The notes under the pieces: generated by a model
Told to the model about the DNA's origin: nothing
Databases searched by the model: none
Seen by the model: the letters and a program-made list of their open reading frames with translations, nothing else
Assembly: GCA_051362555.1 (NCBI GenBank)
Contig: CM120647.1
Location: 16,902,651 to 16,966,650 of the forward strand
Reading direction: 5' to 3'
Origin: Lingula anatina
Taxonomy: Eukaryota > Animalia > Brachiopoda
DNA: 64,000 nucleotides
In this document: positions 25,399 to 60,293 of the stretch, in pieces
Numbering within the stretch: position 1 is the stretch's first letter
How the letters are laid out: each line of letters starts with the position of its first letter
Position numbers and translations under genes: made by a program

Positions 25399-25711
25399 AT
25401 GGACGGTCCTATAACCATAGAGAACCAAATAAAGCTCAACAAAAACTGGGAAGCCATTTGCGATGACCTTAAAGTAACTTACATTATTCCTGCACTCATC
25501 ACAAGTGGTGTCATCACCCCTGATGAACGCGACGACCTGCTAAAGGAGAAAACGTGCTTGAAACAATCTAGAAAGCTGCTGTCACTTTTGTTAGCCAAAG
25601 ACAACAAACATTTTGAAAGGTTCAGAGAATGTTTGCTTGAAGACTACAACTGGCTGGCAAAGGGCCTGGAAGATTATAAGGTCACAGTGGAAGACCAAGA
25701 GGCTTACATAG
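25399..25711 (+). CDS. CARD (death-fold) exon, APAF-1-like; coding exon 1 of the CARD-NB-ARC-TPR-protease gene
   Basis: The helical pattern LNKNWEAICDDLKVTYIIPALITSGVITPDERDDLLKEKT..QSRKLLSLLLAKDNKHFERFRECLLEDYNWLAKGL resembles the APAF-1 CARD. Acceptor at 25386, phase-1 donor G|GTAATA at 25712. Confidence 0.85.
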
Positions 25712-29655: not shown

Positions 29656-29689
29656 TTTTTTTATTTTACCTACAAATATAAATATTTTC

Positions 29690-30125
29690 TACAAATCATT
29701 TTATCATTTTTCTGACTGATAAATGAAAATAAGGATTAAAATCTTGTTGTAATAACTTTTAAAAATCCCCTTGATGTCATTGTGACATCAGTTCTCTAAT
29801 TGATTTTGCAATAGAACCAAACAGAAATACATTGCTGATTCTCAGACATTAGACAGCTATTAAATGCGATATTCTGGACCTTCCTTTTTTTGGCAAATTA
29901 GCATCTCTAAAAATGTACATGCCTCACACAAGTATCTCATGTCAGGCTCTAGGCACATCAATGGTCGATGGTGCGTCTGACCTCATTTGACTGCTGTCAG
30001 GGCTCTTTAGCAGCAATGCATTCCTCGGGATAGGTTATTAAAGTTTACTTTAGAATAACATTCCAGGCATATGTCAAAACATGTCCAGTTTGGTTCAGTT
30101 TTGTTGTAGGACAAGTAGGTCGTTG
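29690..30125 (-). mobile_element. Diverged 3' fragment of the same Tc1-like family
   Basis: Reverse complement resembles 11470-11910 (CTGACTGATAAATGAAAATAAGGATTAAAATC, GATGTCATTGTGA, TAACATTCCAGGCAT). Confidence 0.75.
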
Positions 30126-30129
30126 ATAT

Positions 30130-33100: not shown

Positions 33101-35690
33101 TTAGTTAAAAAGGAAAGTAAAAGCTGTAAAGTTGTAAACGGGGATTCTACTTACAAAAAATTCAAGAACTTTCACGAATTTTTGTGTAACAACAAAGAGA
33201 AGGTTTGAAAAGTTTTGTATGTAATATCCTGTGTTTAATTGATAAGTGATCATTTTTAATGTAGTACTGTAAGCCTATCACAGCTAGGTTTTAGTCTCTC
33301 ATAACCCTTAGTAGGGTAGGTTCTATTTTTTTAACGTGAGACGTTAATAAAATTTTTATTATTATGTATCCAGTCCCGTATACGTATTACTGATTTATAC
33401 AAACGGGGCTCATATTATCAAGATCAACATCTAGAGACATACGAAGAAGAAAGTACATCGGCTCTTGTTGAACGCGTTATCGGCAAAATAAAAGGTTATT
33501 TATTTCTGAACTCAATGACAAGAGAATTGGAATATTCAATGGGCATATATTGTTATTTACAAAAAATGCAGAAAAGCCTTTCTGTAAGCTACACGTGCAT
33601 AATACATGTATGGTAAAGACAAAATGGATAATAAAAATAATCTAACAACGTATTTGTAAAGTAATAGGCCTACAAATATGCTTAGTATTAGATAGTTGAA
33701 AAGTATGAATTGTGTGGAAAACACTTTATTTGAATGATTTTATTGTCTTTGATTGAAAACGATGAAAATACGCATGAAAAAGTTTAAAAATCAAATAATT
33801 TGGCCCCTTGCTATAATTTTGTTTTTGCATGACGGTTTTGTTTCAGTTTGACAAAATTTTCATACTTGTCAGACCGAAAGTCTGACATTTTTTACCTGTC
33901 GTAAATTTTGTACATATACTAGAGTAAGACACGGTAAACTTTAATTATCGTCTGGGAAAGAGTCGAGAATTCCTGTCTCACCTATTTAACACTTAAAATT
34001 AGAAGGTTTTAATTACAGAGGAAAGGTCGTAGTTGTGGCCGCCACCCTTACCGAACAATTGAACAAGTAACACCTGATGCCTTATCAGGTACAAAACGAT
34101 TTAATCAGTTCACCGACGAAGGATCTGCGTGTCAGTTTTACCTGTATACACAGTAGGTACGAGTCAAACAATGCAGGGAATCTTTTCATTTTATCATTTC
34201 AAAAATCATAAGACATCCTTCAAACAAGACAAAAAATCGTAATGAATTGATACTGCGGTAAATGAGGTGATATCGCCACAGCTTGCATATATATATACAT
34301 GTAATATTGAAAAGTCGTAGGCCTACGCACCTGTCCACACTCTTGAAAGCTGTGTACGAGTCTACTGGCTATTTTGATTTTATATATATATATATAAAAA
34401 TAACGAGTCTCTTTCGCATATCTTTATTATCGGAAGCATTTAAAAGAACTCTGAAGCTTTAGTTCATCACTATTGAAAGTGCAGCCAAGCTCGGACGCTT
34501 AGGGTAAACTGAAGAAGAAAACATTAAATTGCCTGATTATCTGTCCAAATAGCGGTTTGCTTGCCTACAGTTTACGCATTTCTGTGCTTCAGCCACCTTT
34601 TTAGTTTGACAGAAAGCAGTGCACGCTTCAAAACGACCTTTTTATATGCGCACCTTGTACATCATCTACACCTAGCATTGTCATGCTGGAAACAGCAGAG
34701 GACTACCATGACCCCTGTGGCGCGTGGTTCCTCTCATGCGCACTTCGTATTTCCGCAAAAGATGAAAAAGGTTAATAGTAAGACCCCCTCCTCTTTAACT
34801 GATGATTTACACTGTTAATTGACCGTACTTTCATATATTGTATGATCACACAGTCAGACTTTCCCCGGTTGCACGTTGGAGTTAGATTGTCCTTGCGCCT
34901 CTGTCAATGCACCTCATTTAATTTTAATATTATAATATAAGTGCAGTATAAGTCATATATTCTTTCCTTATTCCTCATTCATTAACATTCATGTTTTATA
35001 AATACTTGAATGCAGTACGTTTATAAATAAATTATACATTTATAAATTAATGCAATAAGAATTTTTTGAGACAGATTGATGCTGACGCTCATGCATGTCA
35101 ATCAAATAAACAATACTTAGTTCAATTTTTGACTGCGGAAATTTCATATTGGATGAAATAACTGATAACAAATTTAACTAGCAGTTTGTAAGCAACACTA
35201 AAAACATATTCAGCTGCGCGTGCCAAACTAGTGAGCAAAAGGACAGTTCGCTACGCGTGGCACGCGTTAGCATGGGTTCTAGCCTCTTAAAGCTATAATC
35301 CTATCGCCGCAACAAACAATGGGGACCTTCTGGCTGATGTATCCTGCTGTTAATTACACCTAGTTACAGCAGAAATCGGCGTCATGGGGTTTTGCACCTA
35401 ATTTTAGATTCACGTTGAAAAATCCCCTTTCTACACAGGACATTGTTAACATACACAACCAAGGGAATGAGCAGCTACCTAGGCCGCCAGATTTGAACCA
35501 CATACACAATCTTCATGTACAGTGGTAGTAATAATTTTGTTTCTGTTGTACACCGGTTTAACAACGTTCGAAATGTTTTAATCCCTATCTTGTGAATAGA
35601 AGGGGGCGGACAAACAATGGAGGGCCGTATAAATCCCTTCAAAATTCGAACGCACAAACACAATAGCTTAGGTGGAATAACACAATGATT
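30130..35690 (+). repeat. Segmental duplication, copy 2, inside the CARD/NB-ARC intron
   Basis: Collinear with 14605-18830. It carries an extra 2.1-kb insertion, and the terminal ~170 bp (35520-35690) is inverted relative to 18835-19005. Confidence 0.9.
32635..34775 (+). mobile_element. Non-autonomous TIR DNA transposon with a degenerate THAP zinc finger
   Basis: 27-bp TIR TTAACCTTTTTCATCTTTT(C/G)CGGAAAT. The element is absent from the paralogous site at ~18160. The relic ORF from 32725 reads MAGFTCFLSRCYNNSKRD..FNKFP...W...GHRVCAEHFEGG. Confidence 0.8.
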
Positions 35691-37462
35691 TGAATGACTT
35701 AATTGAGTACAAGATTATATACAAGAACTTTAAAAGAGCATAATAAAACAACTAACAACTAATAGTACGACATCACTTTAAAATAATGCAAAAATAAGAT
35801 TGTACTCAAAAGGGTTTGCCTAAAGGGTCATTGACCCATGAATGGACCCCCCAAAAATATACAAATAATAAAAACTCTACTTTAGTACTAAAAACGACAA
35901 TGAGTACATCTAAAAACGACAATGTGTACATCTGCAACGAGCCACCCAAGTGCAAACGATCTCGGGGTCAAAGCGCTCCACCAGAAGAGTACCATAGTGC
36001 GCTCTAACGGATAGTCTAAACATTGATCTGCCAGCGCCTGAACGTGTTCAAATTGGAAGGGCGTTCCAGATGGGAACAACACAATTGAAAAAAGACCGGC
36101 AAAGCGTTTCGGTTCTACAGAAGTTGGCACTGTGGATGATAAAATGATCTCCCCTTCTTTCTCTAAAATACGAATACGTCGTATGGTCAAGGTCAGCCCT
36201 GCCAATAAAACAACTATGTAGGAAGGTAACGTCTAAAATTTCTCTTCTATAAGCTAAAGGCAGCAAGTTTAAAGCAATCAGTCTGTCTTTATAATTCATT
36301 TGGTTACCCAGAATATGTCTTGTGGCAGATTGCTACACCCTTCCTAGTTTTATTAAATTTTCTTTTGTAATGTAATCCCAAGATATAGAATTAAACTCAA
36401 GCTTTGAACGTACTCACGAATAAAAAAAATGCTGCATTAACCTTGGGTTCCTCTTTCTGTCAAACACTCGCCTAATAGTTGTCCATGTCTGATTTGCACT
36501 CTTAACAATGCTATTTATATGTGAATTAAAAGTCAGCTCGCTGCTAACGGTAACTCCTAAATCCCTTGCTTCATGTACCTTTGTCAACACATGTCCAAAG
36601 ATGTTATAATAAAATACAGTTGGATTGACCTTCCGTGTGACATTTAACAGCATACATTTTTTTAAGCATTCAATTTCATTCCCCACCTTTTACACCACTC
36701 TACTACCTTCTCAATATCCTCCTGGAGGGCCAAACAATCAGCCAAAGAACTAATTAATCTATGCATTTTTGAGTCATCAGCAAAAAGAGACATAGTTGTG
36801 AACCGGTCAACAACCTCAGGTATGTCATTGACATAGAGTAAAAACATCAGTGGCGCCAAGATTGATCCTTGTGGAACTCCAGAAGTTACATCACTAGTAT
36901 ATGAGTTTTCACCATTTAAGCATACTCTTTGCTGTCTTCCGGTTAGATATCCGCTAAACCAGTTTAATAATCTACCATTTATCCCAAAACTACGCAATTT
37001 ATGAACCAAAAGTTGATGAGGCACGACGTCGAACGCCTTACTAAAATCTAGATAAATGACATCAATCTGCTCACCTCTATCCAAATTCTCCCCTATTGAA
37101 TGTAATGCTTGTACTAATTGGGTGCTAGTTGAACGCTGTGCACGAAAACCACGATGAGCATCATTAAGGGTAGGTAGGATTAGTTCGGTCAGTTTAGTGT
37201 GGATCAGTCTCTCCATAACCTTGGAAATAGTAACAGAGATACTGACCTGTAGGTTTTAACCTTATACCCTTGTTACCCTTTTTGATCACAGGCGTGACAT
37301 TTGCCAACTTCCAAATATTAGGCAGCTCACCAGTCAACATACTACAATTAAATAAGAACGCACAAGAGTCACTTAATGATGCGGCACATTCCTTCAATAG
37401 TTTTGGCGGAATTCCATCAGGACCGTTAGCTTTGTTTACATCAAGACCTGAAAAACAATTTA

Positions 37463-37620
37463 CAGGGGCGGATTTTGGCCGTCTTCTGGGTCTTCCAGAA
37501 GACGGTCAGATTTTCAAGTTTACATTGACGGGTATCGATTTTTTCTGTCGGAAGACGGTCAAAAATGGAGGACGGGTCAACAAAGTTGACCGTCAGAAAA
37601 TATCTCTGAATCCGCCCCTG
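37463..37620. mobile_element. MITE inserted in CR1 ORF2
   Basis: TIR CAGGGGCGGATT/AATCCGCCCCTG with 5-bp TSD ATTTA. Removing it restores the frame VLNCFSGLDVNKANGPDG. Confidence 0.85.
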
Positions 37621-38680
37621 ATTTAACACCTCTTCGGTCGTAAAATCAAAACATTCTAACGAAGGTGCGACCACCATGTCAATATCTGGCAAAACTATAT
37701 TGTCATTAGAAAAAACGGCAGTAAAGTAAGCATTAAACAATTTGGCTTTATCACCGCAATCAACCCCCTTCACACCATTGTAACTGATAGATTTCGGTAT
37801 CCTATTAGCATTTACTTTATTGTGGTAAAACGACCAAAAGCGCTTCGGATTGGACCTTGACTCCCTACCTAGTGCTTCGATATATGTTTTGTAACTAGCA
37901 CAGGCTTATCCCTTAACCTGTTTCTCAAAAATCTATACTTATTCCAAGATGTTACCATCAAGGCCTACTTGAGACCTTTAACATGCGCTTAGGTACAAAG
38001 CAATCTATTCCCTCATTTACCACATACAGCCAATCATTCCACACATGTTCAACATCATTGTTGGCATTACGTGCCCTAAATTCAGAACCATGACCAAGCC
38101 TCTCACAAAGGAAATTCCTCAACCCTTGTACATCTGCATGCTTCCAATCTAAAATTGACCTCGACTTCTGATTCACCCTACTCATATTCATTTCAAACAT
38201 AAACACTACTGGATAATGATCCGAGCAAAAACCGTCAGGCCAGACATCTAAATCACAGATTTGTTCAGGTCTAATTGACAAAACTAGATCAAGGATATTC
38301 CCTGACCTATGCGTAGGCTCATGTACCATCTGCGTCAGTGTAAAATCAAACAATAGTGTAGTGTCCAATATCTTGACAAACACCTTAATCTTTTCTTGAG
38401 ACTTTTATTGAATCACCACAATGAATACGTTCTGAAATAATAACAATGAAAACAATGTTAACTATAACTACACAGATAAAGTTTAAAATAGACATGTTCT
38501 TATCTTGTAACTTATGAGATACTTAAACATCTATGCTTTACTTTCTTTACATGACCTACGGGCATGCATACTTAGCCTAGGTCCCAACTACGTTTTGCAC
38601 GCACGGTTTTTAGGTCCCTTGCGTCCGGCTAGGACGTAGTTAGATCGCACGTAGCGGCTGTTGATCATGTCGAAAAGTTA

Positions 38681-38952
38681 AGCCTAGGTCCCAACTACGT
38701 TTTGGACGCACGTTTTTTTTTTTTTTTTTTTGTTCCTTGCGTCCGGCTAGGACGTAGTTAGATCGCACGTAGCGGCTGTTGATCATGTCGAAAAGTCTCT
38801 ACGTGCTGTTTGCGTCCTCCAAAAGTCGCACGATAGACGTGCTCCTCACGCACGGACTCCTTCCCGATTCCTTCCCTGCGATCTAGCTACGTCCTAGAGG
38901 GACGCAAGGAACCTAAAAACCGTGCGCCCAAAACGTAGTTGGGACCTAGGCT
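38681..38952. mobile_element. PIF/Harbinger-like MITE, with a partial copy at 38574-38677
   Basis: TIR AGCCTAGGTCCCAACTACGTTTTG with TTA on both sides. Confidence 0.75.
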
Positions 38953-39109
38953 TTACAGGGGTATATGATTGAATATCACTCTTATAAATTTAATTTTCAT
39001 ACATGCATTACAAAGCTTAAAAGAACAAAATTTAACTTAAGAAATAAGCTATAATATACATAAGCTAGCATCTTACTAGACTTGTATAACCTCTTGAACT
39101 TGTAACAGC

Positions 39110-40270
39110 TTAATAATAATAATAATAATAATAATATTTATTTATAGTCTAAAATCCAACATGTGTTCAGTAGACTTTACAAAAATTATAAAATTCAAAT
39201 TAAAAGAAAAATATTGCTAATGGTTATAAGATGAAAGGATATATAAAATGGATAAAAAGGGGGAAATTTAAAACTATGACTAAGAACAGTTTTTATTAAG
39301 AAGTGTTTTTTCAAGAATTTAAAGATAATATTGTTTAAAAAGGTGGGTTTTTAGTTCCTTTTTAAAATGTCCAGGGTCCACAATTTGTCTAAGGCTGATG
39401 GGTAAAATAATCCATTCTTTTGGTGCTCCAAATTTAAATCTTTATCACCGTATGATACTAATCTTGTCTTATAAGCATTAAGAAGAAGGTGATCACCTGA
39501 TCTGAGATTTCTTGATGGCACGTAGTGTAAAACAAACTCATTTAAATAAGAAGGTGCAAGTTTATAAAATGCTGCATGTGCAAATGTTAAAAGTTTGAAT
39601 AAAATGCGTGCTCGGACAGGGAGCCAGTGCAACATCTTTAAAACAGGAGTAATGTGGTTGTCTTTTGGAGTGCGGGTCAGTAGGCGAGCAGATATATTCT
39701 GTACACGCTGTAGCCGTTTGATTTGTTCCTCTGAAGATCCATAAAGAAGGGAATTGCAGAAATCAAGTCTCGATGTAACCAGGGCATGTATAACTGTTGC
39801 TGTAACAGAGTCGGTTAAATGTTTTCGTAAGGAACCAATGTTTCTAATATTGGACATACATGTTTTAGATACGTTAGAAATTTGCCTGTTCATGGACAAT
39901 GTACTGTCAAAATAAACTCCCAGATTTTTGGCGTGAGATGAGACTTGTACCACGCTGGCACCTATTGACATGCTAAGACTGCGGGCAATGTTCTTATTGT
40001 GTGGTTGTGATATTACTAGGAATTCAGTTTTCTCGTCGTTGATCTTGAGTTTGTTTCTGATCATCCACCCCCTTATATCAGAAATAGAGTTGCCTATTTT
40101 AGTAATTGATGATTCAGGGTTTCTAATATTGCAGGATGTGAAAAGCTGAGTGTCATCAGCATAAATGTGATAACCCGTCTCATGAAAACGTTTAAGGTTT
40201 GCACCAAGCGGTAAAGTATAAATGTTTAACGAAAATGTTTAAGGTTTGCACCAAGCGGTAAAGTATAAAT
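39110..40270 (-). mobile_element. 5'-truncated L2-like LINE
   Basis: YADDTQL, NKLKINDEKTEFL, ALVTSRLDFCNSLL and HITPVLKMLHWLPV, plus a simple-repeat tail at 39110-39135. Confidence 0.9.
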
Positions 40271-41688
40271 ACAAAATATGAACTTGCAGTCTCATACAGC
40301 ACACTTGTAAAACATGACATAAATAACTTTGACTGCTGACGTGGACTTTTGTCTTTTTTCTACTTTTTTTTATACATGTACATATGAGGTGTCGCGTGTC
40401 CACCGTGATTCTGTACGTGTCGCTTCGTTAGTTCTCTTTGAAAACCTTAAACTTGTTCCTTGTCGTGAAAAACACATTCAACGTTGCATCGTAAGTCAGC
40501 CATATTTTCCTTGCGACCTTGACCTTGACCCTGTTTCGTCAGCAAGATTGTTTCTGCAGGGCGCAACTAATGCAATCTACATTTAAACTTAACAAATAGA
40601 TCACAGAACTCTTGTGCTACATCGTATACTGATTGACATGAAATGATTGACCAGTCAATACTTGATTGACATGAAATGATTGACCAGTCAATACTTGGAA
40701 AGTTAAAATCACCCATAACGCATAAATCATTGAAGGTTCTCTCACAGTTTTTCAAAATAGTTCTGAATTGACTAATAAATCCACGAGTTGATACAGCGTC
40801 ATAAGCAGGAGGACGGTAACACACTACTATGCCATGTTTTGGTTACCGTGTCCCATTACCTCGACAACAACACATTCGAGACTGTCGAGTTCTAATGAAT
40901 GTCATTTTTCAAAGCCAATAAAACACCCCCTCCCCTATCGTCGTTTGGCCTGTCCCTACGAAACAAAACGTACCCATCAGGTAAGATTTCACCGTCAGTA
41001 ATTTGCAAAGTTAACCACGTTTCAGTCACCGCTACACAGTCAATATCATTACATATAACTATGCTTTGGAGATCAACCAACTTATTTTTAGAATTGTCAA
41101 CAGTTTTTACGCTACGTGCATTCAGCTGTAACATAGAGAGTTTGGAGAAAGATTTGCCGGTCACTTTATCTCATGCATGCCTGTGAGATTCAGCATGAGT
41201 AGTTGCGCCCATCTATTGCTTGTTTCCATGAAAGTTTTCGAGTGCGACATGATGATTTCTCCCCGCAGAGCAATTTCCTGCGTCAACTGACCCTTCCCTG
41301 TGAATACCTCCACGCCGTCCTGAATGAACAGAAGTCCAGCCAGCGTTGTGGTAACAATCATTAGCGTCTGATCTGAGGTTACTGGACCTATCATAATGGC
41401 GGGCATTCACAATGCGGTTACCAGCAAATATTACGTGATCCCGCGCACCAGGAATGCTATTAACAAGGGTCCGCATACTTGTTTCCATATCACGTACATG
41501 CTTAGGCTTGTCGTGATTTATTGAGATATTTGAATATACACGAGAATCCTTCAAACGGCTTTTTACTTGCATAACACATTTTTTGTCTTCGTTTGTGTGA
41601 AAACTGGCGATGACAACACCAGGTCTATCGTTGTACGTTGGTTTTCTTTCAGCTTTTGCTACCTGAACTTTGATCCAGAGTAAAGCAG

Positions 41689-42210
41689 TATATCAGACCA
41701 CACTACCCGTTTTCAAGGTGTGTGTCAGATCGCATTACAGAGTATCAGCCACCACACCGATTTTGCCTGGTGCGCTATGTGATAGCCATGATCCTAAGCG
41801 GGGTTGGAAAGTAGTGCATCTCATCTAGATTCATGCGCTGCTGCAATTTTCCCTGTTTATGCTAAAAATCTGACAATACCGCAATTTATAAACATAAAAT
41901 TTAGGTTCAAACATAGCCAATGATGTTTTGTAAATAAGAACTTGCAAACTTATATATTAATTTAGAAAAGTATACCTAATTTTGATAGCGGAAGCATATT
42001 CTGTCGGGGGTTAAATAAAATTATGCGATTTTTTCACCGACTACCGTCTGTCGCCATGTTGTTGTATTCATACGACTCCTACTTGACGAAAACGAGGCGT
42101 GATACCCGGATGACAGGTAGGCCTACAAAATTTGTGATGGGGTATGATACACAATGTACTCTGTAATGCGATCTGACACACCTTGAAAACGGGTATTGTG
42201 GTCTGATATA
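41689..42210. mobile_element. MITE with ~55-bp TIRs inserted in CR1 ORF1
   Basis: TATATCAGACCACACTACCCGTTTTCAAGGTGTG..TCAGATCGCATTACAGAGTA and its reverse complement at 42158-42210. Confidence 0.8.
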
Positions 42211-42800
42211 CCGGTTTATTCTGGATCCGTAGGTGCCGAGTCTGGTAGTTGGGTAGGCCTGTTATTGTATTTTTCATTATTTCCATAGTCTAAGCAAGGC
42301 GAGATGTTTTCAACCGGATCGGCTACAAAGTCTGTCAGCTTACGCCATTTCGTTATGGTAGTGTCCAGGGACACGGTTCTGACCCGCTACCATTTTTACT
42401 AGCATGGACCGCCTTATCCACCATATTGGATAATACATAACAGAGTCACAGTCACCTCAACCTGTTTATCTATAACAGGGTACCGAGAACTGTCAACTTT
42501 ATTAACTTCACTCCATCACATTTACAGCAACTTATTCATCCTAGTGTTAGCTGACCTTGCAAGGAATTCAGTTTATTGGAATATATTTATGAATAACAAG
42601 ACAATTCACTAGTTCACTAAATACACAATACAACTGTCACTTTTACTTTAAAACACTTTTTTTTTATTATTTTGATAAAGTTAGTTACAATATTGATAAA
42701 CAAAGTATCACGTTTTCAATAATTAATATTTTAAATTACAATCCATGTCTGCAAGTTTGTGTCAATGACCAAATACAACATTCAGTCAACGTCACATTAT

Positions 42801-43534
42801 GATCGCATTCACAACGAGTTGAGCCAGGCTTTACAAATCCTGGAACTAAATATGGCGGACGTACATGAAAGAAAAACCGCCTAATCTGTTAATAGTCTCT
42901 CCGTCTCTCACACGCCTCCCCACGCGTCGTCCCTGCGGGGGTACAGTCATTAAATCTCGGCTCCATTCGCCATGCGGAAGCTACCTGAGAAATATTAGGT
43001 GCGCACGCTCATCAATTAAACTCGAGGTGAAGAAAGCATGGCGGCTGGAGGCGATCGAAGGAAAAAAGCCATTATATTACAAAACAGAGACGAAAAAGGA
43101 ATGAATTGGCCCGTAGACCTGGCAGCTATCTACGGAGATAATGTCACCAGAGATAAGCACGGAGATACACTATTCAATTACTGTACGTGAAATTTTACTA
43201 TGGAGTAGGGCCTACCAACGCAAATGAATGGCTTTTCACATCCATCTTATGCTGTTGTGAAAACTTATCGTCGGTTAATTTATTTATCGGAAGGGGGGGG
43301 GGGTTTCACGATTTAGATCCCTATGAATTTGCGCACTTAGTATTTCTCAGGTAGCTTCCGCATGGCGAATGGAGCCGAGATTTAATGACTGTACCCCCGC
43401 AGGGACGACGCGTGGGGAGGCGTGTGAGAGGCTGAGAGACTACTACAAGATTAGGCGGTTTTTCTTTCATGTATGTCCGCCATATTTAGTTCCAGGATTT
43501 GTAAAGCCTGGCTCAACTCGTTGTGAATGCGATC
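42801..43534. mobile_element. Foldback-type element with ~200-bp inverted arms
   Basis: 42801-43005 is the near-exact reverse complement of 43330-43534, and TAT flanks both ends. Confidence 0.85.
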
Positions 43535-44771
43535 TATGACGGTGTTTTGACGTGGCTGGATCAACGGTAATTTTACGTTGAATTTAGGTAGATCATCGGC
43601 AATTCAACATATCAACCTGTTTTCAACGTTAATCTAACGCGACTATGCATGCTGGGTAGTCAGTTTATTAGTAGCGACACATCTGGCGACATATTCCTCC
43701 TTTCACAAATCTTATATGAAATCTTAGTTTTTCTTAAAGATCGCATTTTTACATACGCATACCCTTGAACGTAAACTATTTGATATAAGATATAAAGTCT
43801 GTAGGAATCGATGGGGATTGCTAGGAAAATTTATATTGAAATGTGATCATTAAGGATTTAACAGCTTCAGCAACAACAATTATCCTTCTGTGAAATTCAT
43901 ATTTATACTTTTTTTGAATCAGCTAATCATATAGTTTGCACATACCATTAATAAGAAATTGGTGTTCAAAATTTGAAACTATTGTTTTGAGTTCAATTAA
44001 TGCCTCATGGAAAGCCACCATCTTGGTTTTTCAAAGGCTGAATAGAAGTTCTTTTCAGAATTAGGTCAGCAGTTGTACACTGAATATTACATTTAGATAA
44101 TCAAGAAGTTACACAGGTTTACGAGAATAGAATAAGAATCCATAATACTTCCATTTAACTATCGTTACAACAATTGTAAAGCTGCTGTATTCTGTACTAG
44201 CATACGTTGCAGTTACATTCAAATTGAACATTCAACAAAAGAGCTCGAAGGAAATGGTACTTTGTGGTTCCTTATCAAATTTTGAAAAATCAAGACCATA
44301 GAAATATCCTAAATTTCTCAAATACTCCAATGCATTGTGATAAATGTAGGTAGCTCAGTTCCCTTTGGTAAAATAAAACAAAGGGATAGGAGAGTTATAG
44401 GAACCAAGAGCTTAGAGATCTTTACAGGTAAATGCCATGCAAAACATTTTGTCAAGTGTCAGCTATTAATTGAAATCTCCCGCAACAGGTGTATACATCT
44501 CAACAACGCAGTGCCTACCTAGGGTGATTTTGTATGCTTAATATTGATTATGAAAAAAAAAAAAAAAAAAAACAGCAGAAGGAGAGACACATTGCATAAT
44601 AGCTAACGGAATGATTACTTTAGTGTTAAGTCAACATAATGAACCCTTGCAGTAGAACCCTTGAACAATGTATTTAAGTCTAATTAGCTGCACAATTTTT
44701 GCAAACCAAATATCACTCTATGAGTACTTTGCATTGCCACATTTCATTAGCTGGTTGATTTATATTTTCAG

Positions 44772-47700
44772 GTTCCATTCTGGAAAACTGTTCTTTACCA
44801 CAGCTACCAAAGTGTTTTGTTGGGCGTAAAAATGATGTCCAAAAGATAATCAACACATTATTCACTGAAGGACGTCGTCTCGCAGTAATAAAAGCCTTTG
44901 GCGGGCAAGGTAAGACCACTTTGGCAACCGCAATAGGCCACACCTGTGTGTCAAAATGGGGAATACGTTCGGTCATGGCTGACATGAAGGGGGTGTCACT
45001 CGACGACGACATTCCTTTGTCCCTTCTTTTTGCTATGAAATGTTCACCAGGATTAAACAGTGGACAAACCAACGCTGCTCGTCTCATAAGAAAGGCTTGC
45101 CAAGAAGTATCTTCATATGGCAAAAAGCAGCTCATTGTTCTAGACAATTGTGAGAGTGCTCTGAAGGAAAGTACACACAACCACTTCTATTCCTTACTAA
45201 AACAATTGCTTTCCAGTAACAATGTCTATATTTTATGTACAACTCGGCAAACTATACAGATTCCAAACGAGGAGGTGCTTAATCACGAACTTGGGGCTCT
45301 GACAGAGGATAGCTCTTTTGTTGTGTTGCAGTCCTACTCACAAAGAGTGAGCCGTGAAAACAGCAATCACTTGGCTGAAAAATGTGGCTTCGTTGCTCTG
45401 CTGCTTCATATCCTTGGCAAGTTACTGCAGCAAGGTCACAGAGCAATAGACATAATAACCGAACTAACTTCAAAAACAGTATTTGGATTGAATCTTTCAC
45501 CATCAATGCCCAAAGGTCTCAATGCCACAGCTTGCATTAACCTATCTTATGAACGGTTGGGCCAGGAAATGCAAGATGCAGTCCAAATGCTTTCTCTTTT
45601 TCCAACAAGTTTTAATGCAGAGGATGCATTTTATCTCTTAAGTAAGCACCAAAGCAGTCTGAGTATGTTTGATTGCAGCACTTGTCTACAAACACTTTGT
45701 GAAGCTTCGTTTGTGCAGTATGATGCAGCAAGTGAGTCGTATTCCATGCATGGTGTTATACAGGCATTTGCACATAATCAGACTTCATACAAAAATGAGA
45801 ATCGTTTCAAAGAGATGTTCATGACATTAATGGAGGATAAGATTGATCACATATACACTCTGGCTTCAGCAGAAAAAGTTTGCGAGGCATCCACGCTCTT
45901 TGAAAAAGACAAAAATAGTCTTTTGGCGTCTATCTGTATTTTTGAGTCAATGCAACCAGGCTCAAAGAAAACGACCTACAGCATAGCGCAAAAATTGGCT
46001 TTTAGTCTTAGACAAATAGGCAGGTTCTCCGATTCTCTCAGATGCTTCAGGCTAGCATTAGAAACCGTAAAAGAACAACAAAATGAATATCCCGATCTAG
46101 CCACTTTCTATTATAACATAGGTTATCTACAAGGTGAACTTGGTGATACAGATGCTGCTGTTGAAAATTTGTCCTATGCAATATTGGAGTATGAGAAACA
46201 AGAGAATAACTGTAATTACAAGGATTATTGTAAATGCTGTTATTACCTAACATTGAGGCTAAATGAAACAAAAGAAAACCATGCTCGCTGTCTCCAAATA
46301 CTGAAAAAATGTTTTGATAAAGCCGTTGCTCATCACGATTTAACTATGCAATATCTTGCAATGGCCGGAATAGCAGAAATCAAAGCCAGACAAGGAGACG
46401 ATGAGAAGGCCGTTATGGCCGATTTGCATGATATACTGAAGGCAGATCCAGACATGGATGGTAAGAAAAACGGAGTGGGTATGGATGCTTTGAATGATGC
46501 GGCCATTGCTTTGAATCATATTGGCCAAAAGGTGGAAGCTTTGTCATTATATAGACGGGCAGTTTTTGTAGCAGAAAACTTCTACGGAAAACACCCTACA
46601 ACTGCTATTGTCCTCGATAAGATAGGTTCTTTCATGGTGGAGACCGGTGATGTAGATGGTGCCATAAAATATCTCAGGAAAGCGGTGGCAATGAGAGAAA
46701 ATACACTGGGATTTTACCATGAACATACAGCAGCCTCAATGCATCGATTAGCTGATGCCATATCTGCACAGGGAAACCACTCTGAGGCCCTTAGTATATT
46801 CCAGAGAGCTTTAAGTATAAAGGAGCAAGTGCTGGGTGAGTCCCGAAGTACAGCCAAAACACTAATACGCACAGGTAATGAGATGATCGAGCTTGGCAAC
46901 GCAGAGAATGCTGTGAATGCCTTAAAGAAAGCTGTAGTTATGATAAAAAATACACCGGGAGAATACTGCAAAGAGACACCTGCCCTGCTGTATGATCTAG
47001 CACAACAGACAGCAGCAGAGGGACACCACGCAGAGGCCTTCAGTGCATACCAACTAGCTCTACATATACTGGAGAAAGATGCAGGTGAAACTCTAGTCAA
47101 AGCTGCTGCACTAAACCGCATAGGTCAAGAAATTATGTTGCTGGGTAAAGCAGACAATGCGGAGAATGTTTTCAGAAGAGCTCTAGTCATAGAAGAGAAA
47201 ACATTGGGAGAATCCCACACAAAGACAGCAAAAACCATATATGAGCTAGCCAATGCCCTTTTTGAACAGGGAAAGTTCACCGACGCCCTCATTACATTCC
47301 AAAGAGCTCTAAGTGTATTTAACAACCATTCATTCAACGCAGTAACATTAGGCAAAATAGGTGGCATAATGTTAAAGCTGGGAAAAGTAAACGCTGCTGT
47401 GGATACCTTCAACAGAGCCCTTACTTTACGGAAGAATATGCACGCAGAAAATGACGAACAAACAGCAGCCACGTTACATGAGCTGGCATGTGCTTTATCT
47501 GCAAAGGGACACCACACAGAGGCCCTCAATACATTCCAAAGGGCTCTACAGATAAGAAAAGAACTGCTGGGTGAAAGTCGTGATACAGCGTCTACACTAC
47601 ACTGCATAGGCAAAGAATTGATGGCGCTGAGAGATGTCAACGGTGCTGAAGCTGTGTTTAGAAGAGCCCTGCCTATGAGAGAGAAGATACTTGGGGAATA

Positions 47701-50700
47701 TCATGAACAGACGGCAGCCACATTACATCAACTTGCATTGTGCATTTCTGCACAGGGAAACCATACCGAGGCCCTGAGTACATACCGAAGGGCTCTCCGT
47801 GTATTTGAGCAAAAGTTAGGTGAAAGTAAAAATACAGCATGTGCGCTTCATGGCATCGGGCATGAAATGATAGAGTTGGGTGATGCAGCTGGTGCTGTGG
47901 ATGTCCTCATTAGGGCTTTGGCTATGGAAAGCAAGATATTGGGAGAAGATCACGAACAGACAGTTACCACAATACGTGAACTGGTTCGTGCTATTTCTAC
48001 ACTGGGAAACCAAGGAGATACCCACAGCCCAGCCCAAAGGATAAAGGAGAATGAACTAGGTAACAGCGAAAAAACGGCAACGAGACTTCACAACATAGGT
48101 TATGGATTGAAACAGATGGGCAATTTAGACGGTGCCGTGGGTGTCCTTAGGGCAGCTCTTACTATGAAGGAGAAGATATTTGGAGAGTATCACGAAAACA
48201 CAGCAGTCACAGTACATATGCTCGCTACTGCTCTATCTGCGCAGGGAAACCATGAACAAGCCCTCAGTACATACCAAAGAGCTCTACGTATAAGGGAGAT
48301 AGAGCTGGGAGAAAGTCAAAAAACAGCATGCACAATGCACGGTATAGGCCAAGAAGAGATGTATCTGGGTAATTTAGAAGAAGCACTAGCTAAACTCAGG
48401 ACAGCCCTCTCCATGAAGGAAAAGGTGCAGGGAGAATTCCATGAAGATACAGCAACAACAATGCATGAGCTGGCACGTGCCATGTCAGCACAGGGAAACC
48501 ATGCAGAGGCCCTCGGCACATTTCAAAGGGCTCTGGGAATACGGGAACTTTTACTTGGCGCGAGTCAAAGCACGGCGGATACATTGTACTGCATAGGCTG
48601 TGAAATTATAGCGCTAAGAGATGTAGGCGGTGCTGAAGATATCCTCAGAAGGGCCCTGGATATGAAGGAGAAGATACTTGGGGAATATCATGAACAGACG
48701 GCAGCCACATTACATCAACTTGCATTGTGCATATCTGCACAGGGAAACCATACCGAGGCCCTGAGTACATACCGAAGGGCTCACCGTGTATTTGAGCAAA
48801 AGTTAGGTGAAAGTCAAAATACAGCATGTGCGCTTCACGGCATCGGGTATGAAATGATAGAGTTGGGTGATGCAGCTGGTGCTGTGGATGTCCTTATTAG
48901 GGCTTTGGCTATGGAAAACAAGATATTGGGAGAAGATCACGAACAGACAGTTACCACAATACGTGAACTGGTTCGTGCTATTTCTACACTGGGAAACCAA
49001 GGAGATACCCACAGCCCAGCCCAAAGGATAAAGGAGAATGAACTAGGTAACAGCGAAAAAACGGCAACGATACTTCACAACATAGGTTATGGATTGAAAC
49101 AGATGGGCAATTTAGATGGTGCCGTGGGTGTCCTTAGGGCAGCTCTTACTATGAAGGAGAAGATATTTGGAGAGTATCACGAAAATACAGCGGTCACAGT
49201 ACATATGCTCGCTACTGCTCTATCTGCGCAGGGAAACCACCCAGAGGCCCTCAGTACATACCAAAGAGCTCTACGTATAAGGGAGATAGAGCTGGGAGAA
49301 AGTCAAAGAACAGCATCTACACTACACGGTATAGGGCAGGAAAAAATGTATCTTGGTAACTTAGACGTTGCAGTAGCTGAACTCAAGAGAGCTTTATCAA
49401 TGAAGGAAAGGGTACAGGGAGAATGTCATGAAGATACAGCAACAACAATACATGAGTTGGCACGTGCCATGTCAGCACAGGGACACCACAAAGAGGCCCT
49501 TAGAACATATCAAAGGGCTCTAGAAATAAGGAAGCATGTGCTTGGTGAGAGTGAAAGCACGGCGTGTACCCTACACTGCATAGGCCAGGAATTGATAGCA
49601 ATGATAGATGTAGACGGTGCTAAAGGCATGTTTAGAAGAGCACTGCTTATGAGAGAGAGGATGCTTGGGGAATATCATGAACAGACGGCAGCCACATTAC
49701 ATCAACTTGCATTGTGCATATCTGCACAGGGAAACCATACCGAGGCCCTGAGTACATACCGAAGGGCTCACCGTGTATTTGAGCAAAAGTTAGGTGAAAG
49801 TCAAAATACAGCATGTGCGCTTCATGGCATCGGGCATGAAATGATAGAGTTGGGTGATGCAGCTGGTGCTGTGGATGCCCTCATTAGGGCTTTGGCTATG
49901 GAAAACAAGATATTGGGAGAAGATCACGAACAGACAGTTACCACAATACGTGAACTGGTTCGTGCTATTTCTACACTGGGAAACCAAGGAGATACCCACA
50001 GCCCAGCCCAAAGGATAAAGGAGAATGAACTAGGTAACAGCGAAAAAACGGCAACGAGACTACACAACATAGGTTATGGATTGAAACAGATGGGCAATTT
50101 AGACGGTGCCGTGGGTGTCCTTAGGGCAGCTCTTACTATGAAGGAGAAGATATTTGGAGAGTATCACGGAAATACAGCAGTCACAGTACATATGCTCGCT
50201 ACTGCTCTATCTGCGCAGGGAAATCACCCAGAGGCCCTCAGTACATACCAAAGAGCTCTACGTATAAGGGAAAAAGAGCTGGGAAAAAGTCAAAAAACCG
50301 CATCCACACTACACGGTATAGGTCAGGAAAAGATGTATCTTGGTGATTTAGACGGCGCAGTGGCAGACCTCAAGAGAGCTCTGGCTATGAAAGAAAGGGT
50401 ACAGGGAGAATGTCATGAAGATACAGCAACAACGATACATGAGTTGGCACGTGCCATGTCAGCACAGGGACACAACAAAGAGGCCCTTAGAACATTCCAA
50501 AGGGCTCTAGAAATAAGGGAACGAGTGCTTGGCGAAAGTCAACTTACAGCGTCTACTCTTTACTCCATAGGTCACGAATTGGTGGTGCTAAGCAATGTAA
50601 ACAGTGCTGAAGGTGCTCTCAGAAGAGCCCTGGCTATGCAGGAGAAAATACTCGGAGAACATCATAAAGACACAGCAGAAACGTTACATGAACTGGCATT

Positions 50701-51144
50701 TTGCAAGTCTGCACAGGGGAACCATAGGGAGGCCCTCAGCAAATACCAGAGAGCTTTTCGTATAATGGAACAAGTGCTGGGGGAAAGCCAAAGTACCGCA
50801 TCTGCACTTCACGGCATAGGCCATGAAAAGATAGAGATAGGCGAAGCAACCGATGCTGTGAATGTACTCGAGAAAGCTCTGGCTATGAGGGAAAAGATAC
50901 TGGGAAAATCCAATTATCAAACAGTTGCCACAAAATTTGAGTTGCTACGTGCTTCATTTATACAGGGAAGCCACGCACATTTACCACGTAAACCCCAAAG
51001 TGCTCGACGGATAAAGGAACACTACCTGGGTCGTGGCACAACTACGACATATGAACTTCCCAATGAACATTCAATGGAAGAAGATGGCACTGTAGACGAT
51101 GCAGTGGATGGCCTGAAAACAGCTTTGAATGAGAAATTATATTA
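44772..51144 (+). CDS. NB-ARC-like STAND NTPase + long TPR array; coding exon 2
   Basis: Acceptor TTTTCAG at 44771 (phase 1). Motifs LPQLPKCFVGR, Walker A AFGGQGKTT, Walker B LIVLDNCE, sensor-1 ILCTTR, CINLSY and YSMHGVIQ, followed by roughly 35 TPRs of 41-42 aa. Donor TA|GTAAGT at 51145. Confidence 0.93.
47690..50650 (+). repeat. Coding higher-order tandem repeat, 3 x 987 nt (329 aa, about 8 TPRs each)
   Basis: CTTGGGGAATATCATGAACAGACGGCAGCC at 47690, 48677 and 49664, and a diverged equivalent at 50651. Confidence 0.95.
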
Positions 51145-51352
51145 GTAAGTATGCAATTCAGAAAAGGTTATTAAAAATATTTTCCAACTTTGATGTAAGT
51201 TCCAAAGTTATGATAAAAGTAAGACATTAAAGTGTATCTTAAGTTTCACAGTCCCAATGTCTGATTTGCATGTTAATTGTATAGATGAAAATTAATATGA
51301 GGTGCATAACATAATTAAATACACATTATCATACATATCTACTCTGTTTCAG

Positions 51353-51418
51353 TACACGAGAGACGCAAGACGAATCTAAAATCCATGTAACCAAAGAACT
51401 TGTAAACGAAATGAAGAG
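51353..51418 (+). CDS. 66-nt linker exon; coding exon 3
   Basis: Acceptor CTCTGTTTCAG, open frame (Y)TRETQDESKIHVTKELVNEMK(S) and donor AG|GTACTT. Phases 2/2 match both neighbours. Confidence 0.72.
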
Positions 51419-51789
51419 GTACTTAAATTTTTACTCAGTTTGTTTAAATGGTTAGAATCAAAGATGTTTACATTATCAATAATAAAATATTCGCAAACAT
51501 TGCCACAGAAAATGAACAATAATTTATCTTGTTTTTCATTAAATAAGGTACAAATGGCGCAATTTGGGCCAGTAATTATTTGTTTTTATGACGGGTGCAC
51601 TTTAGAGCTCCCGTCGTTAATCAACGTAAATACTGACCTAAAAAATCAGATAATCATAGAAGGTGACAATATTTACTTAACGTTATTTCTTTAGACGTTC
51701 TTTGTGATTTTTTCAACCATTTTGAACTTAATAGCATTTATTTCTAAATGAAAAATTAACGAACTTAAAGTCAAAATTGTCAATTTTAG

Positions 51790-52771
51790 TACAAAAGGCG
51801 TAGTAGCAGTGGGTAGATGGGGTGACTATTTGCAGATTCATGTGCATGATGACGGTGCACCAAAGAATACTATTTCTGATGACGATTTAGTAAAGATATT
51901 AAAGAAACACAGGATTCGTGAAGACAAAATTCTAATCGTCCGCCAATCCCAACGACCACAACATGTTTTGTTCAGCGCTGCCCCTGCCCCTGGATCTAAA
52001 ATTCACAGGAACAGCATGGATCACCCAAAATATGGTACTCTTGGAGCTTATGCCAGTCCCTCGGATGATTTGAAAAGTGGCTATGTTTTGACATGCTGGC
52101 ACGTTACACAAAATTGCAAAGAATTTTACTTGGCAACTAATGGGCCAGAGGACACTGGAACAGCTGCAGCACCTGCAAATTGCATCAAAGGAAAGTGCGT
52201 TTTGCCTATCGAGCCTGGAGATCCTATAGGAAGCAAAATCGATCTGTCGATTATAAAGTTTAATGACATCAAAAAGAAACAGCAGGATGCGACTGCCTTG
52301 CAAACAATTCATGACGTTAATTCGCTCATTGGTAAAGAAGTGTTTAAAGTGGGTGCTACGACGAAGAAAACAACCGGCACAATCATTGGTACCGATTACT
52401 TTTTATTGGACGAACAAGAAGCAAGCGAAAAACTTATTTTAATCCTTCCAGATCCAGCGTGCACATCTACGAGATTTTCAAGAGGAGGTGACAGTGGATC
52501 TGTTGTACATTTGAAAGACAATGAAAACTTGGCTTCTATGGTTACTGGTGAACTTCAAAATTTTGATTATTATGATAATCGCTGTGAACCCCCCAAACTA
52601 ATAAAGGGTGGCCCAAGTTTGACAACCTCGTTTTCGATTTACGAGGGGTTAATGGCAGCTTCGAAAAGAGAAAATAGACAGTGGTCAATTTTCAGCCCCA
52701 CGGCATTCGAATGTGGCATGAATAGAGAATGCCCAGCATCGGGATCGCTTTTTGAAGCAGCAAATTCGTAA
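51790..52771 (+). CDS. Trypsin-fold serine protease, Nal1-like/peptidase S64-like; terminal coding exon 4
   Basis: Acceptor ATTTTAG at 51789. Motifs GVVAVG..LQIHV, YGTLGA, LTCWHV (His 52100), IDLSII (Asp 52241), VFKVGATTKKTTGTI and FSRGGDSGSVV (Ser 52493). There is no signal peptide and no ATG at the ORF start. Confidence 0.85.
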
Positions 52772-59728: not shown

Positions 59729-59877
59729 GTAAGGCTTTGTGATCAAAATAGAATCGGCTTTGAGAACTCTTGGTTACTTTATTATGGCACTAGGGAGTGC
59801 AAGGCAAAATTTAAAGCTTGATAAATTTTTTATTAACACAGGCACATTTTGGTCATGTCACCCATGGTTATTTCCAG

Positions 59878-60293
59878 GGAACGAGTTCCTCCACCGCTTG
59901 ACGGGACAGAGGCTGTACGCTTTGAGAGTAGACTTGAGAGACGGTAACGGCACCGAAGCCTACTCCAAGTCCTCCCTCTTTAAAATCAGCGATGAGGCTG
60001 AGAAGTACAAGCTTACTTTGGGGGACTACTCGGGAACGGCCGGCGGTCCCATGACTGGTAACGGAAAACCTTTCACTACGAAGGACCGGGACAACGACGA
60101 TCACGCTGGGAACTGTGCTACGATGTACAAAGGAGCGTGGTGGTACACAAAATGCCATGCTACTAACCTGAATGGGCGCTACTACAACGGACCGCACGAC
60201 TCCTATGCTGATGGTGTGAATTATCAGCAGTTTAGAGGATACCATTACTCGCTTCCATTCACTGAGATGAAGATACGCCCAGTTGATTTTTAA
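59878..60293 (+). CDS. FReD protein B, terminal exon
   Basis: Acceptor TTTCCAG, 416 nt encoding GNEFLHRLT...GAWWYTKCHATNLNG...EMKIRPVDF, and AATAAA at ~60343 and ~60358. Confidence 0.93.

What the first reader, a model, noticed from the sequence alone, without database searches (positions are those of the whole stretch)
51353..52771. Cytosolic Nal1/Ssy5-type protease with an intact triad in an animal genome
Seen: His (TCWHV), Asp (IDLSII) and Ser (GDSGS) occur in trypsin-fold order, with GTLGA and VFKVGATT.TTG motifs. The IVGG activation site, TAAHC and the CxGDSGGP of animal S1A proteases are absent. Established: these motifs match plant NAL1, fungal Ssy5 (S64) and bacterial relatives. Inference: the GVVAVG..LQIHV segment completed by the linker exon resembles the Nal1 N-terminal region and may be an autoinhibitory prodomain. 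The domain may be ancient and patchily retained or horizontally acquired, and its substrate (for example a gasdermin-like effector) is unknown.
Basis: partly seen in the sequence, partly recalled or inferred. Interest (0 to 1): 0.75.

Follow-up and report, generated by a model that had tools for sequence, protein, structure and literature searches.

The report
Immune-type sensor with NAL1-like protease tail
This is a real rice-NAL1-like serine protease domain from a marine invertebrate, predicted to be the tail of one 2,577-residue protein (CARD, NLR-type ATPase, long TPR repeats, protease) that likely acts as an intracellular immune sensor and would switch on its own protease by clustering, as some bacterial anti-phage proteins do.

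Summary
51790-52771 encodes a trypsin-fold domain whose His, Asp and Ser align on the triad of rice NAL1, the best sequence and fold match. S1A and HtrA hallmarks are absent.

The finding misses the context. The protease is the last exon of a four-exon model: CARD (25399-25711), STAND ATPase plus TPR (44772-51144), linker, protease; 2,577 aa, no internal stop. Reads from a diverged copy show two of the three splices; TPR-to-linker is only inferred. A Lingula anatina RefSeq model has the same architecture, 57% identical over the protease.

The domain is not an animal oddity: brachiopod and bivalve relatives exist, and a shared intron position argues against recent transfer. The small domain before the protease is predicted to bridge copies into a NAL1-like trimer; autoinhibition is untested.

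Best reading (about 0.5): an NLR-like sensor whose oligomerisation activates a built-in serine protease, like bacterial Avs2-trypsin. Activity, ligand and substrate are not shown; nothing points to a gasdermin. Ten literature searches found no description. New variant of a known kind; interest 0.62.

The parts
25399..25711 (+). Coding exon 1: start codon and CARD domain; acceptor ends at 25386, in-frame stop at 25387-25389 before the ATG
   Evidence: Pfam CARD 53.6 bits; best PDB hits APAF-1 CARD 6.7e-7; 4 reads in run X7 run from exon 2 into a sequence matching 25680-25709 at 27 of 30 letters, next best places 20 and 18 of 30; 55% identical to the CARD of P0001
44772..51144 (+). Coding exon 2 (6,373 nt): STAND ATPase followed by a long TPR array
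   Evidence: ORF of 2,128 aa; Pfam TPR_12 647 bits, 21 stretches; phase-1 acceptor, phase-2 GTAAGT donor; RNA depth in X7, X8, X9
44828..45760 (+). STAND (NB-ARC-like) ATPase: Walker A, Walker B, sensor-1 Arg, MHD-like motif (motif names recalled)
   Evidence: NB-ARC 23.3 bits against cut-off 23.5, E 4.3e-5; nSTAND1 E 0.001; motifs at model residues 148, 225, 259, 430; 46% identical to P0001
47456..50973 (+). 987-nt unit of TPR repeats, duplicated about 3.5 times in frame
   Evidence: Self-BLAST; the three full units are 89-92% identical, dN/dS 0.33-0.39
51353..51418 (+). Coding exon 3 (66 nt linker); supplies the first helix of the small domain before the protease
   Evidence: Joint to exon 4 in 5 reads, 3 starts, run X8; spliced helix scores -3.5 against 8 full-length relatives, read-through -16.0, background -11.7 +/- 4.3, top 3%. 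Its join to exon 2 is inferred, not seen
51790..52771 (+). Coding exon 4: small alpha/beta domain (about 51791-51946) and NAL1/S64-type trypsin-fold protease (about 51974-52705), stop codon
   Evidence: 57% identical to P0001
52100..52102 (+). Catalytic His (aligns with NAL1 H234)
52241..52243 (+). Catalytic Asp (aligns with NAL1 D291)
52493..52495 (+). Catalytic Ser (aligns with NAL1 S385)

Best explanation
The NAL1-type protease is predicted to be the C-terminal module of a 2,577-residue CARD-STAND-TPR protein that likely works as an intracellular immune sensor: ligand binding to the TPR array would oligomerise the ATPase, cluster the CARDs and let the protease modules assemble into an active oligomer that cuts a specific cytosolic target. 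Shown by sequence or reads: the four domains, the triad residues, the CARD-to-STAND and linker-to-protease splices (in a diverged copy). Predicted: the TPR-to-linker splice, the trypsin fold, a trimer in which the small domain of one copy grips the protease of the next. Inferred by analogy: ligand sensing, activation by clustering, CARD recruitment of a CARD-caspase, an immune or cell-death output.
For: Exon model in frame without stops, all three introns GT-AG. Two of three joints in reads; in X8 the depth next to the unseen joint is even if all letters lie on exons (6.9 at the end of exon 2, 5.4 on the linker, 6.2 at the start of exon 4). The linker is an internal exon and needs an upstream donor; a GTAAGT donor of matching phase sits at the end of exon 2 (the hexamer occurs 16 times on the + strand of 64 kb). 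RefSeq model P0001 (Lingula anatina XP_013402192) carries CARD, weak NACHT, TPR and Nal1_C in one chain. Another Lingula protein, P0002, fuses LRRs to the same protease, so it pairs with two kinds of sensor repeat. Against P0001 the protease (57%), CARD (55%) and STAND (46%) are better kept than the TPR-dominated segments (33-36% in most), as expected of a variable sensor. Trimer model: score 0.39, best of 3 controls 0.00, runs agree in at least 54% of contacts, pLDDT 76; the mark was reached by 21 of 30 microbial homo-pairs and 0 of 23 single chains, in eukaryotes by 17 of 29 (animals 7 of 16) and 0 of 30. Its interface (residues 4-17 and 48-59 on 199-215 and 252-270 of the neighbour) is of the kind described for the NAL1 trimer, whose triad is properly set only in the higher oligomer (PMC12012508). 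Oligomerisation of a STAND-TPR sensor activates a fused trypsin-like protease in bacterial Avs2 (10.64898/2026.08.25.746987).
Against: The TPR-to-linker joint was not listed in either read lay. Exon 2 ends in a stop if unspliced, with ATTAAA at 51170, 51226 and 51314, so a protease-less form is possible. In one search no read is 99% or more alike and most are under 95%, so the splices are those of another allele, population or paralog. Expression is low, and absent in 3 of 6 runs laid (X1, X4; X3). P0001 is an automatic model and its linker differs from the window's. The protease lies behind about 1,650 residues of TPR, far from the ATPase, whereas in Avs2 it is N-terminal and next to it, so mechanical coupling is less obvious. 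NB-ARC falls just under its cut-off and no PDB sequence matches the STAND region. The trimer pass may come from memory of NAL1 structures: only 1 of 7 eukaryotic pairs without an older solved relative passed, and three copies lie outside the calibration. The TPR duplicates show purifying, not positive, selection. No activity, ligand, substrate or immune induction was tested.
Confidence: 0.5

Rival explanations
1. Ssy5/SltB-like signalling zymogen: the protein cuts itself between the small domain and the protease, the N-terminal part stays bound as an inhibitory prodomain, and its removal frees a protease that processes a latent regulator. The trigger is release of inhibition, not clustering.
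For: Ssy5 and SltB, the characterised fungal relatives, work so (PMC6761765, PMC4985261; passages). Pfam S64 passes its cut-off. Alpha-lytic-type proteases tie with NAL1 in the fold search (5mrt Z 17.6, rmsd 2.5, 171 aligned; NAL1 Z 17.9, rmsd 3.7, 217 aligned), and an alpha-lytic prodomain-like protein appears weakly for the small domain (4hlb, Z 2.9). A low-confidence loop (residues 55-60) separates the two domains. In the trimer model the small domain touches residues 252-261, which by recalled chymotrypsin anatomy border the substrate cleft.
Against: The S64 match covers 76 of 692 profile positions and none of the Ssy5 prodomain. In NAL1 the domain at this place builds the trimer and is present in the solved constructs. 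Z 2.9 is within noise.
Confidence: 0.22
2. Two transcription units or a minor isoform: the CARD-STAND-TPR protein normally ends at the stop at 51143-51145, and linker plus protease belong to another or rare transcript.
For: The stop coincides with the donor; poly(A)-type hexamers follow; the joint was not listed; X7 covers exon 2 but not the protease.
Against: Consensus donor in the right phase; even depth across the gap in X8; fused RefSeq model P0001; only 208 nt lie between the exons.
Confidence: 0.13
3. Scaffold first: the module serves mainly as a trimerising tail that pre-clusters the CARD-STAND-TPR chains, or the gene has a developmental, non-immune role as NAL1 has in rice; proteolysis is minor.
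For: Predicted self-association; NAL1 acts in plant development (PMC12012508); no immune induction data.
Against: Triad and oxyanion-hole residues are invariant or nearly so in 28 rows; CARD plus STAND plus repeats is an immune or cell-death architecture (established knowledge; PMC10312443 passages).
Confidence: 0.12
4. Recent horizontal transfer from bacteria, or a bacterial contaminant.
For: The top Atlas clusters are mostly bacterial (0.98 and 0.97). The AU test does not reject grouping the window and P0001 with all 11 bacterial rows (p 0.117).
Against: Spliceosomal introns confirmed by reads; same intron phase and column in L001, a relative of bivalve proteins; five Lingula and four bivalve relatives by name; trees split animal from bacterial rows (91/93 with 37 rows; 100/100 with three long rows left out); grouping with the 9 core bacterial rows rejected at p 0.032.
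Confidence: 0.03

Closest known systems
Rice NARROW LEAF 1 (NAL1; Pfam NAL1_N PF25608 + Nal1_C PF25819; PDB 7Y77, 8PM*, 8HA*)
   Same: Best sequence-profile (1e-16) and fold match (Foldseek ranks 1-32; VIA Z 17.9); triad in register; small alpha/beta domain before the protease; predicted trimer by small-domain-to-protease contacts.
   Different: About 20% identity; window scores under the Nal1_C cut-off; homology of the small domain is weak, and where bacterial NAL1_N domains have a basic stretch the window has acidic residues (alignments), so ATP binding is doubtful; NAL1 stands alone, this one is fused behind CARD-STAND-TPR.
Yeast Ssy5 / Aspergillus SltB (MEROPS S64)
   Same: Intracellular chymotrypsin-fold signalling proteases behind a large N-terminal region; Pfam S64 passes cut-off.
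   Different: Match limited to the region round the catalytic Ser; no Ssy5 prodomain, no pseudokinase; autolysis untested.
Bacterial Avs2-trypsin-MBL and Avs1 (AVAST); Lysobacter CARD/NLR/trypsin/gasdermin system
   Same: Works-like analogy: STAND ATPase, TPR sensor and trypsin-like protease activated by oligomerisation; CARD, STAND and trypsin-like protease in one pathway.
   Different: There the protease is N-terminal or a separate protein, and the substrate gene is adjacent. PADLOC gives no match for this protease and no Avs model for the STAND. Analogy, not membership.
APAF-1 / CED-4 apoptosome proteins and animal NLRs
   Same: N-terminal CARD closest to APAF-1 CARD in PDB, followed by an NB-ARC-like ATPase and C-terminal repeats.
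   Different: TPR instead of WD40 or LRR; extra C-terminal serine protease. PMC11463336 reports no APAF-1 in Lingula anatina, and six CARD caspase-Y paralogs.
Lingula anatina XP_013402192 (LOC106167851, 'uncharacterized')
   Same: Same architecture; protease 57%, CARD 55%, STAND 46%; sister in both trees.
   Different: 1,786 aa, shorter TPR array, different linker; a paralog or an ortholog from a related species; no function assigned.
Human FAM111A and HtrA2 (intracellular trypsin-fold proteases of animals; location recalled)
   Same: Show that intracellular trypsin-fold proteases without the S1A activation switch are known in animals; fold matches Z 13.2 and 14.7.
   Different: Lower fold scores, 11-13% identity, lack the NAL1-type motifs, other architectures.

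Membership tests
NAL1/S64-like branch of trypsin-fold (clan PA) serine proteases | His-Asp-Ser triad in register with NAL1 H234/D291/S385 | tested here: met
NAL1/S64-like branch of trypsin-fold (clan PA) serine proteases | Two-barrel fold closest to NAL1 among solved structures | tested here: met
   Foldseek top ranks all NAL1; VIA Z 17.9, tied within 1 with L5 alpha-lytic-type protease Z 17.6
NAL1/S64-like branch of trypsin-fold (clan PA) serine proteases | Pfam Nal1_C gathering score | tested here: not met
   24.2 against 26.1; sister protein P0001 passes with 29.9
NAL1/S64-like branch of trypsin-fold (clan PA) serine proteases | Triad geometry and proteolytic activity | not testable with these tools
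Plant NAL1 proper | NAL1_N / ATP-binding domain before the protease | tested here: inconclusive
   No Pfam NAL1_N hit at E 1; profile score 16.6 against shuffles 7.3 +/- 1.3, probability 3.6%; folded alone, Z at most 3.6
Plant NAL1 proper | Trimer through small-domain/protease contacts | tested here: inconclusive
   Model passes the mark (0.39 against control 0.00; 21 of 30 pairs, 0 of 23 single chains) but may reflect memory of NAL1
Plant NAL1 proper | Hexameric cage through an N-terminal strand swap | not tested
Fungal Ssy5 (MEROPS S64) | Pfam Peptidase_S64 gathering score | tested here: met
   28.1 against 23.6
Fungal Ssy5 (MEROPS S64) | Homology along the Ssy5 prodomain and whole catalytic domain | tested here: not met
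   Only profile positions 588-663 of 692 match; the upstream ORF has no S64 hit among the 25 of 37 families shown
Fungal Ssy5 (MEROPS S64) | Autolysis with a retained inhibitory prodomain | not testable with these tools
   Needs protein work
Animal S1A (chymotrypsin/trypsin) | Signal peptide, IVGG-type activation site, AAHC and CxGDSGGP motifs, conserved disulfides | tested here: not met
   Motifs absent; only Cys102 recurs (19 of 27 rows), the other seven Cys in at most 2 of 27; model starts with a CARD
HtrA (S1C) | TNxHV and GNSGG motifs, PDZ domain | tested here: not met
   Motifs absent; no PDZ hit; profile E at best 0.006 for HtrA chains against 1e-16 for NAL1
NLR-like tripartite STAND proteins | N-terminal death-fold domain | tested here: met
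   CARD 53.6 bits, splice to STAND exon in 4 reads
NLR-like tripartite STAND proteins | STAND ATPase with Walker A/B, sensor-1 and MHD-like motifs | tested here: inconclusive
   Motifs present (names recalled); NB-ARC 23.3 against 23.5, nSTAND1 19.1 against 27.1; subfamily not fixed
NLR-like tripartite STAND proteins | C-terminal superstructure-forming repeats | tested here: met
   TPR_12 647 bits
NLR-like tripartite STAND proteins | Ligand-induced oligomerisation | not testable with these tools
   Needs protein work
APAF-1 | WD40 repeats after CARD and NB-ARC | tested here: not met
   TPR occupies the whole region
Avs1/Avs2-trypsin-MBL systems | N-terminal trypsin-like domain on an Avs ATPase, with an adjacent MBL nuclease gene | tested here: not met
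   Protease is C-terminal; no PADLOC match for the protease, no Avs model for the STAND

The most novel reading that the evidence does not exclude
Brachiopods have a one-protein inflammasome-like device in which a NAL1-type serine protease, not a caspase, is wired to an NLR-type sensor, and lophotrochozoans keep a whole unrecognised family of such intracellular proteases as exchangeable immune effectors (on TPR-STAND, LRR and other N-terminal parts), converging on bacterial Avs-trypsin defence.
Probability: 0.35. Interest if true: 0.85.

Novelty: new variant of a known kind. Interest (0 to 1): 0.62.

Why it matters
In animals the known proteases downstream of NLR/APAF-1-type sensors are caspases (established knowledge). 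A serine protease fused to such a sensor would be a second, bacterial-style route in an animal, testable with one construct. Lingula is reported to lack APAF-1 while having six CARD caspases (PMC11463336), so a CARD-STAND-TPR protein is also a candidate for the missing activator. S64 has been called a fungal innovation, and a weak oyster match was doubted (PMC5567314); the relatives, conserved triad and shared intron found here show a real animal family. Against high novelty: every domain and the sensor-protease logic are known, and the architecture already sits unnamed in RefSeq.

Tried and rejected
No whole genome is held, so paralogs and gasdermins could not be searched. The search for homologous proteins: 'near' lengths found nothing; the alignment query searched only proteins of 3,127-5,000 residues and found nothing, so neither is evidence. 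No indexed RNA holder was listed; same-species raw runs were laid instead. The first lay was swamped by a repeat at 41.4-43.9 kb and listed no joint for the gene. Alignment A1 was too diverse for locus searches. The window protease finds no plasmid match. The small domain folded alone gave no significant match: Foldseek best E 0.07, VIA best Z 3.6, ribosomal S3 KH-like; NAL1 not listed; this is not evidence against kinship. Viral fold search not run, machine busy. The STAND region has no PDB sequence match. Positive selection among TPR duplicates not found. P0006 and P0022 were dropped as unrelated repeat proteins. The trees hold no plant or fungal rows; the animal rows were found by searching with the window, and the bacterial rows come from one phylum sample (5 of 401 genomes matched), four of 14 plasmid hits and two unnamed hits classed as bacterial by their place beside L002. 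Earlier findings of the scan: none by sequence or words. Literature: ten searches (and 47 for NAL1 structure) listed no paper describing this architecture or an animal NAL1-type family. PMC8195603 and PMC7159879 have no 'NAL1' in their main text; their supplements were not read. PMC5986222 and PMC7685563 are not held. A 2018 survey of Lingula immune genes that I recall was not looked up and might mention the gene. PMC13475620 (abstract only) did not bear on the question.

Full report
1. Observation. Counting from 51791, His104, Asp151 and Ser235 lie at 52100, 52241 and 52493. Pfam gives Peptidase_S64 above its cut-off (28.1 against 23.6, on profile positions 588-663 of 692) and Nal1_C and Trypsin_2 below theirs. 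The nine best PDB sequence matches are all rice NAL1, at weak E-values of 0.008-0.047. S1A and HtrA motifs are absent.

2. Family. A full phmmer scan of 1.84 billion representatives gave 30 hits at E 0.001 or better. Two are unrelated repeat proteins. In the alignment of the window with 27 hits, His and Ser are invariant and Asp is in 27 of 28 rows. Its profile matches NAL1 at 1e-16 and the next family at 1.5e-5, and the three residues fall on NAL1 H234, D291 and S385 (PMC12012508 passages and section 5). The AlphaFold model (pLDDT 82.7) finds NAL1 first by Foldseek and by VIA-align (Z 17.9, rmsd 3.7, 217 aligned), tied with an alpha-lytic-type protease (Z 17.6). The Atlas gives bacterial Nal1_C clusters and eight hits in a set led by a eukaryote cluster, commonest Mollusca, at 0.97-0.98. 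So this is a NAL1/S64-like protease, but neither plant NAL1 nor Ssy5 proper.

3. The gene. Upstream lies a 2,128-codon frame with a STAND-type ATPase and a long TPR array, and 19 kb further up an exon encoding a CARD whose closest PDB relatives are APAF-1 CARDs. Four exons (25399-25711, 44772-51144, 51353-51418, 51790-52771) join through GT-AG introns of phases 1, 2 and 2 into 2,577 codons without an internal stop. An in-frame stop precedes the start codon and no hydrophobic segment stands out, so the protein is likely cytosolic. The Lingula anatina RefSeq protein P0001 has the same domain order, with 55%, 46% and 57% identity over CARD, STAND and protease.

4. Reads. Six same-species RNA runs were laid, at most 6-30% of each. 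At 85% likeness X7, X8 and X9 cover exon 2 thinly, X8 and X9 also the protease; X3 has nothing, and X1 and X4 had nothing on the exons at 90%. Five reads from three starts in X8 join the linker to the protease exon at the predicted intron. Four reads in X7 leave exon 2 at its 5' edge into a sequence that matches the end of the CARD exon at 27 of 30 letters. The joint from exon 2 to the linker was not listed (three reads are needed; 36 loose-end rows were not shown). It is inferred from a consensus donor of matching phase, from even depth on both sides in X8 (6.9, 5.4, 6.2) and from P0001. In one search no read is 99% alike, so the evidence concerns a diverged copy. Unspliced, exon 2 ends in a stop with poly(A)-type hexamers behind it, so a form without the protease may also exist.

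5. Origin. L001, a gene on a marine metagenome contig that groups with bivalve proteins, has a phase-2 intron at the same alignment column as the window's linker/protease intron, checked on DNA. Seven of eight other short database proteins that start just upstream of that column have Arg or Ser there, as read-through of an AG acceptor would give (inference). Trees put the window with P0001 among animal rows, apart from bacterial rows: 91/93 with 37 rows, 100/100 with three long rows left out. The AU test rejects grouping with the nine core bacterial rows (p 0.032) but not with all eleven (p 0.117). No plant or fungal rows were available and sampling is biased. Recent transfer is unlikely; the family probably predates the brachiopod-mollusc split; its deeper source is open.

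6. The small domain. The linker exon supplies a helix that full-length relatives also have, followed by two strands, a helix and a strand. Its likeness to bacterial NAL1_N domains (Pfam E 1e-6 to 0.09 in five of nine bacterial proteins, one above the cut-off) is weak: score 16.6 against 7.3 +/- 1.3 in 40 shuffles, 17 columns. Folded alone it gives no significant match. A three-copy model scores 0.39 against a best control of 0.00, runs agree in at least 54% of contacts, pLDDT 76; the mark was reached by 21 of 30 microbial homo-pairs and 0 of 23 single chains, by 17 of 29 eukaryotic pairs (1 of 7 without an older solved relative) and 0 of 30 single chains. The small domain of each copy grips the protease of the next, the contact type described for the NAL1 trimer. 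The pass may come from memory of NAL1; it shows likeness, not binding. It favours an assembly role and neither shows nor excludes inhibition.

7. How it most likely works. The architecture is that of an NLR-like sensor with two outputs. I infer that a ligand bound by the TPR array releases the ATPase, which oligomerises; the CARDs would then recruit a CARD partner such as caspase-Y, and the protease tails would assemble and become active. The precedents are NAL1, whose triad is set properly only in the hexamer, and Avs2-trypsin, where STAND tetramerisation activates a fused trypsin-like domain (abstract and sections 8, 9). The LRR-protease fusion P0002 suggests the module is reused behind different sensors. 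The weak point is distance: the protease sits beyond the TPR array, not beside the ATPase. The main rival is an Ssy5/SltB-type self-cleaving zymogen (passages). The substrate is unknown. The Phe or Tyr six residues before the catalytic Ser in all 28 rows and Ssy5's preference for short P1 side chains hint at a shallow S1 pocket (weak inference).

8. Novelty. Ten searches of open full text found no description of this architecture or of an animal NAL1-type family; subscription papers and supplements were not seen. PMC5567314 calls S64 a fungal innovation and doubts a weak Crassostrea match (passages). PMC11463336 finds no APAF-1 in Lingula (passages). Intracellular trypsin-fold proteases as such are known in animals (FAM111A and HtrA2 appear; their location is recalled). 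The parts and the logic are known and the architecture sits unnamed in RefSeq; the combination in an animal appears undescribed. Verdict: new variant of a known kind, interest 0.62.

Noticed in passing
window 47456-50973 (+): 987-nt in-frame unit of TPR repeats duplicated about 3.5 times; the middle of each unit is 97-100% identical between copies while the first 200 nt are 66-88%, suggesting uneven homogenisation.
   Followed up: partly
window 3509-3961 (-) and 59733-60293 (+): Two fibrinogen C-terminal (FReD) exons in opposite orientation flank the gene, 83% identical in protein; FReDs are often immune lectins in invertebrates (recalled).
   Followed up: partly
window 25712-44771: The 19-kb first intron holds several decayed reverse-transcriptase fragments and a repeat at 41.4-43.9 kb with inverted arms (42801-43005 / 43330-43534, 96%) that draws many RNA reads.
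   Followed up: no
P0002 (Lingula XP_013421530): Leucine-rich repeats fused to the same NAL1-type protease.
   Followed up: partly
P0004, P0013, L001:2377-3318: Bivalve-type relatives share an unnamed N-terminal region before the protease (E down to 2e-13); the Atlas gives only sub-0.9 leads to GTPase-like families.
   Followed up: partly
L002:5944-11484: A Bacteroidia relative of the protease lies near HipA-like and antitoxin-like genes (recalled from sequence), an MBL-fold hydrolase and an E1-E2-JAB gene that match PADLOC defence models: a defence-island-like setting.
   Followed up: partly
L009:132-3681 and L010:1-2160: In two Rhizobium plasmids the NAL1-like protease follows HEXXH peptide-modification genes (with a radical SAM gene in L009), hinting at a role as a peptide-maturation protease.
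   Followed up: no
window 8780-9891, and 10279-11947 / 20590-22256: A tandem repeat of about 160-nt period and a 1.7-kb dispersed duplicate (89%).
   Followed up: no
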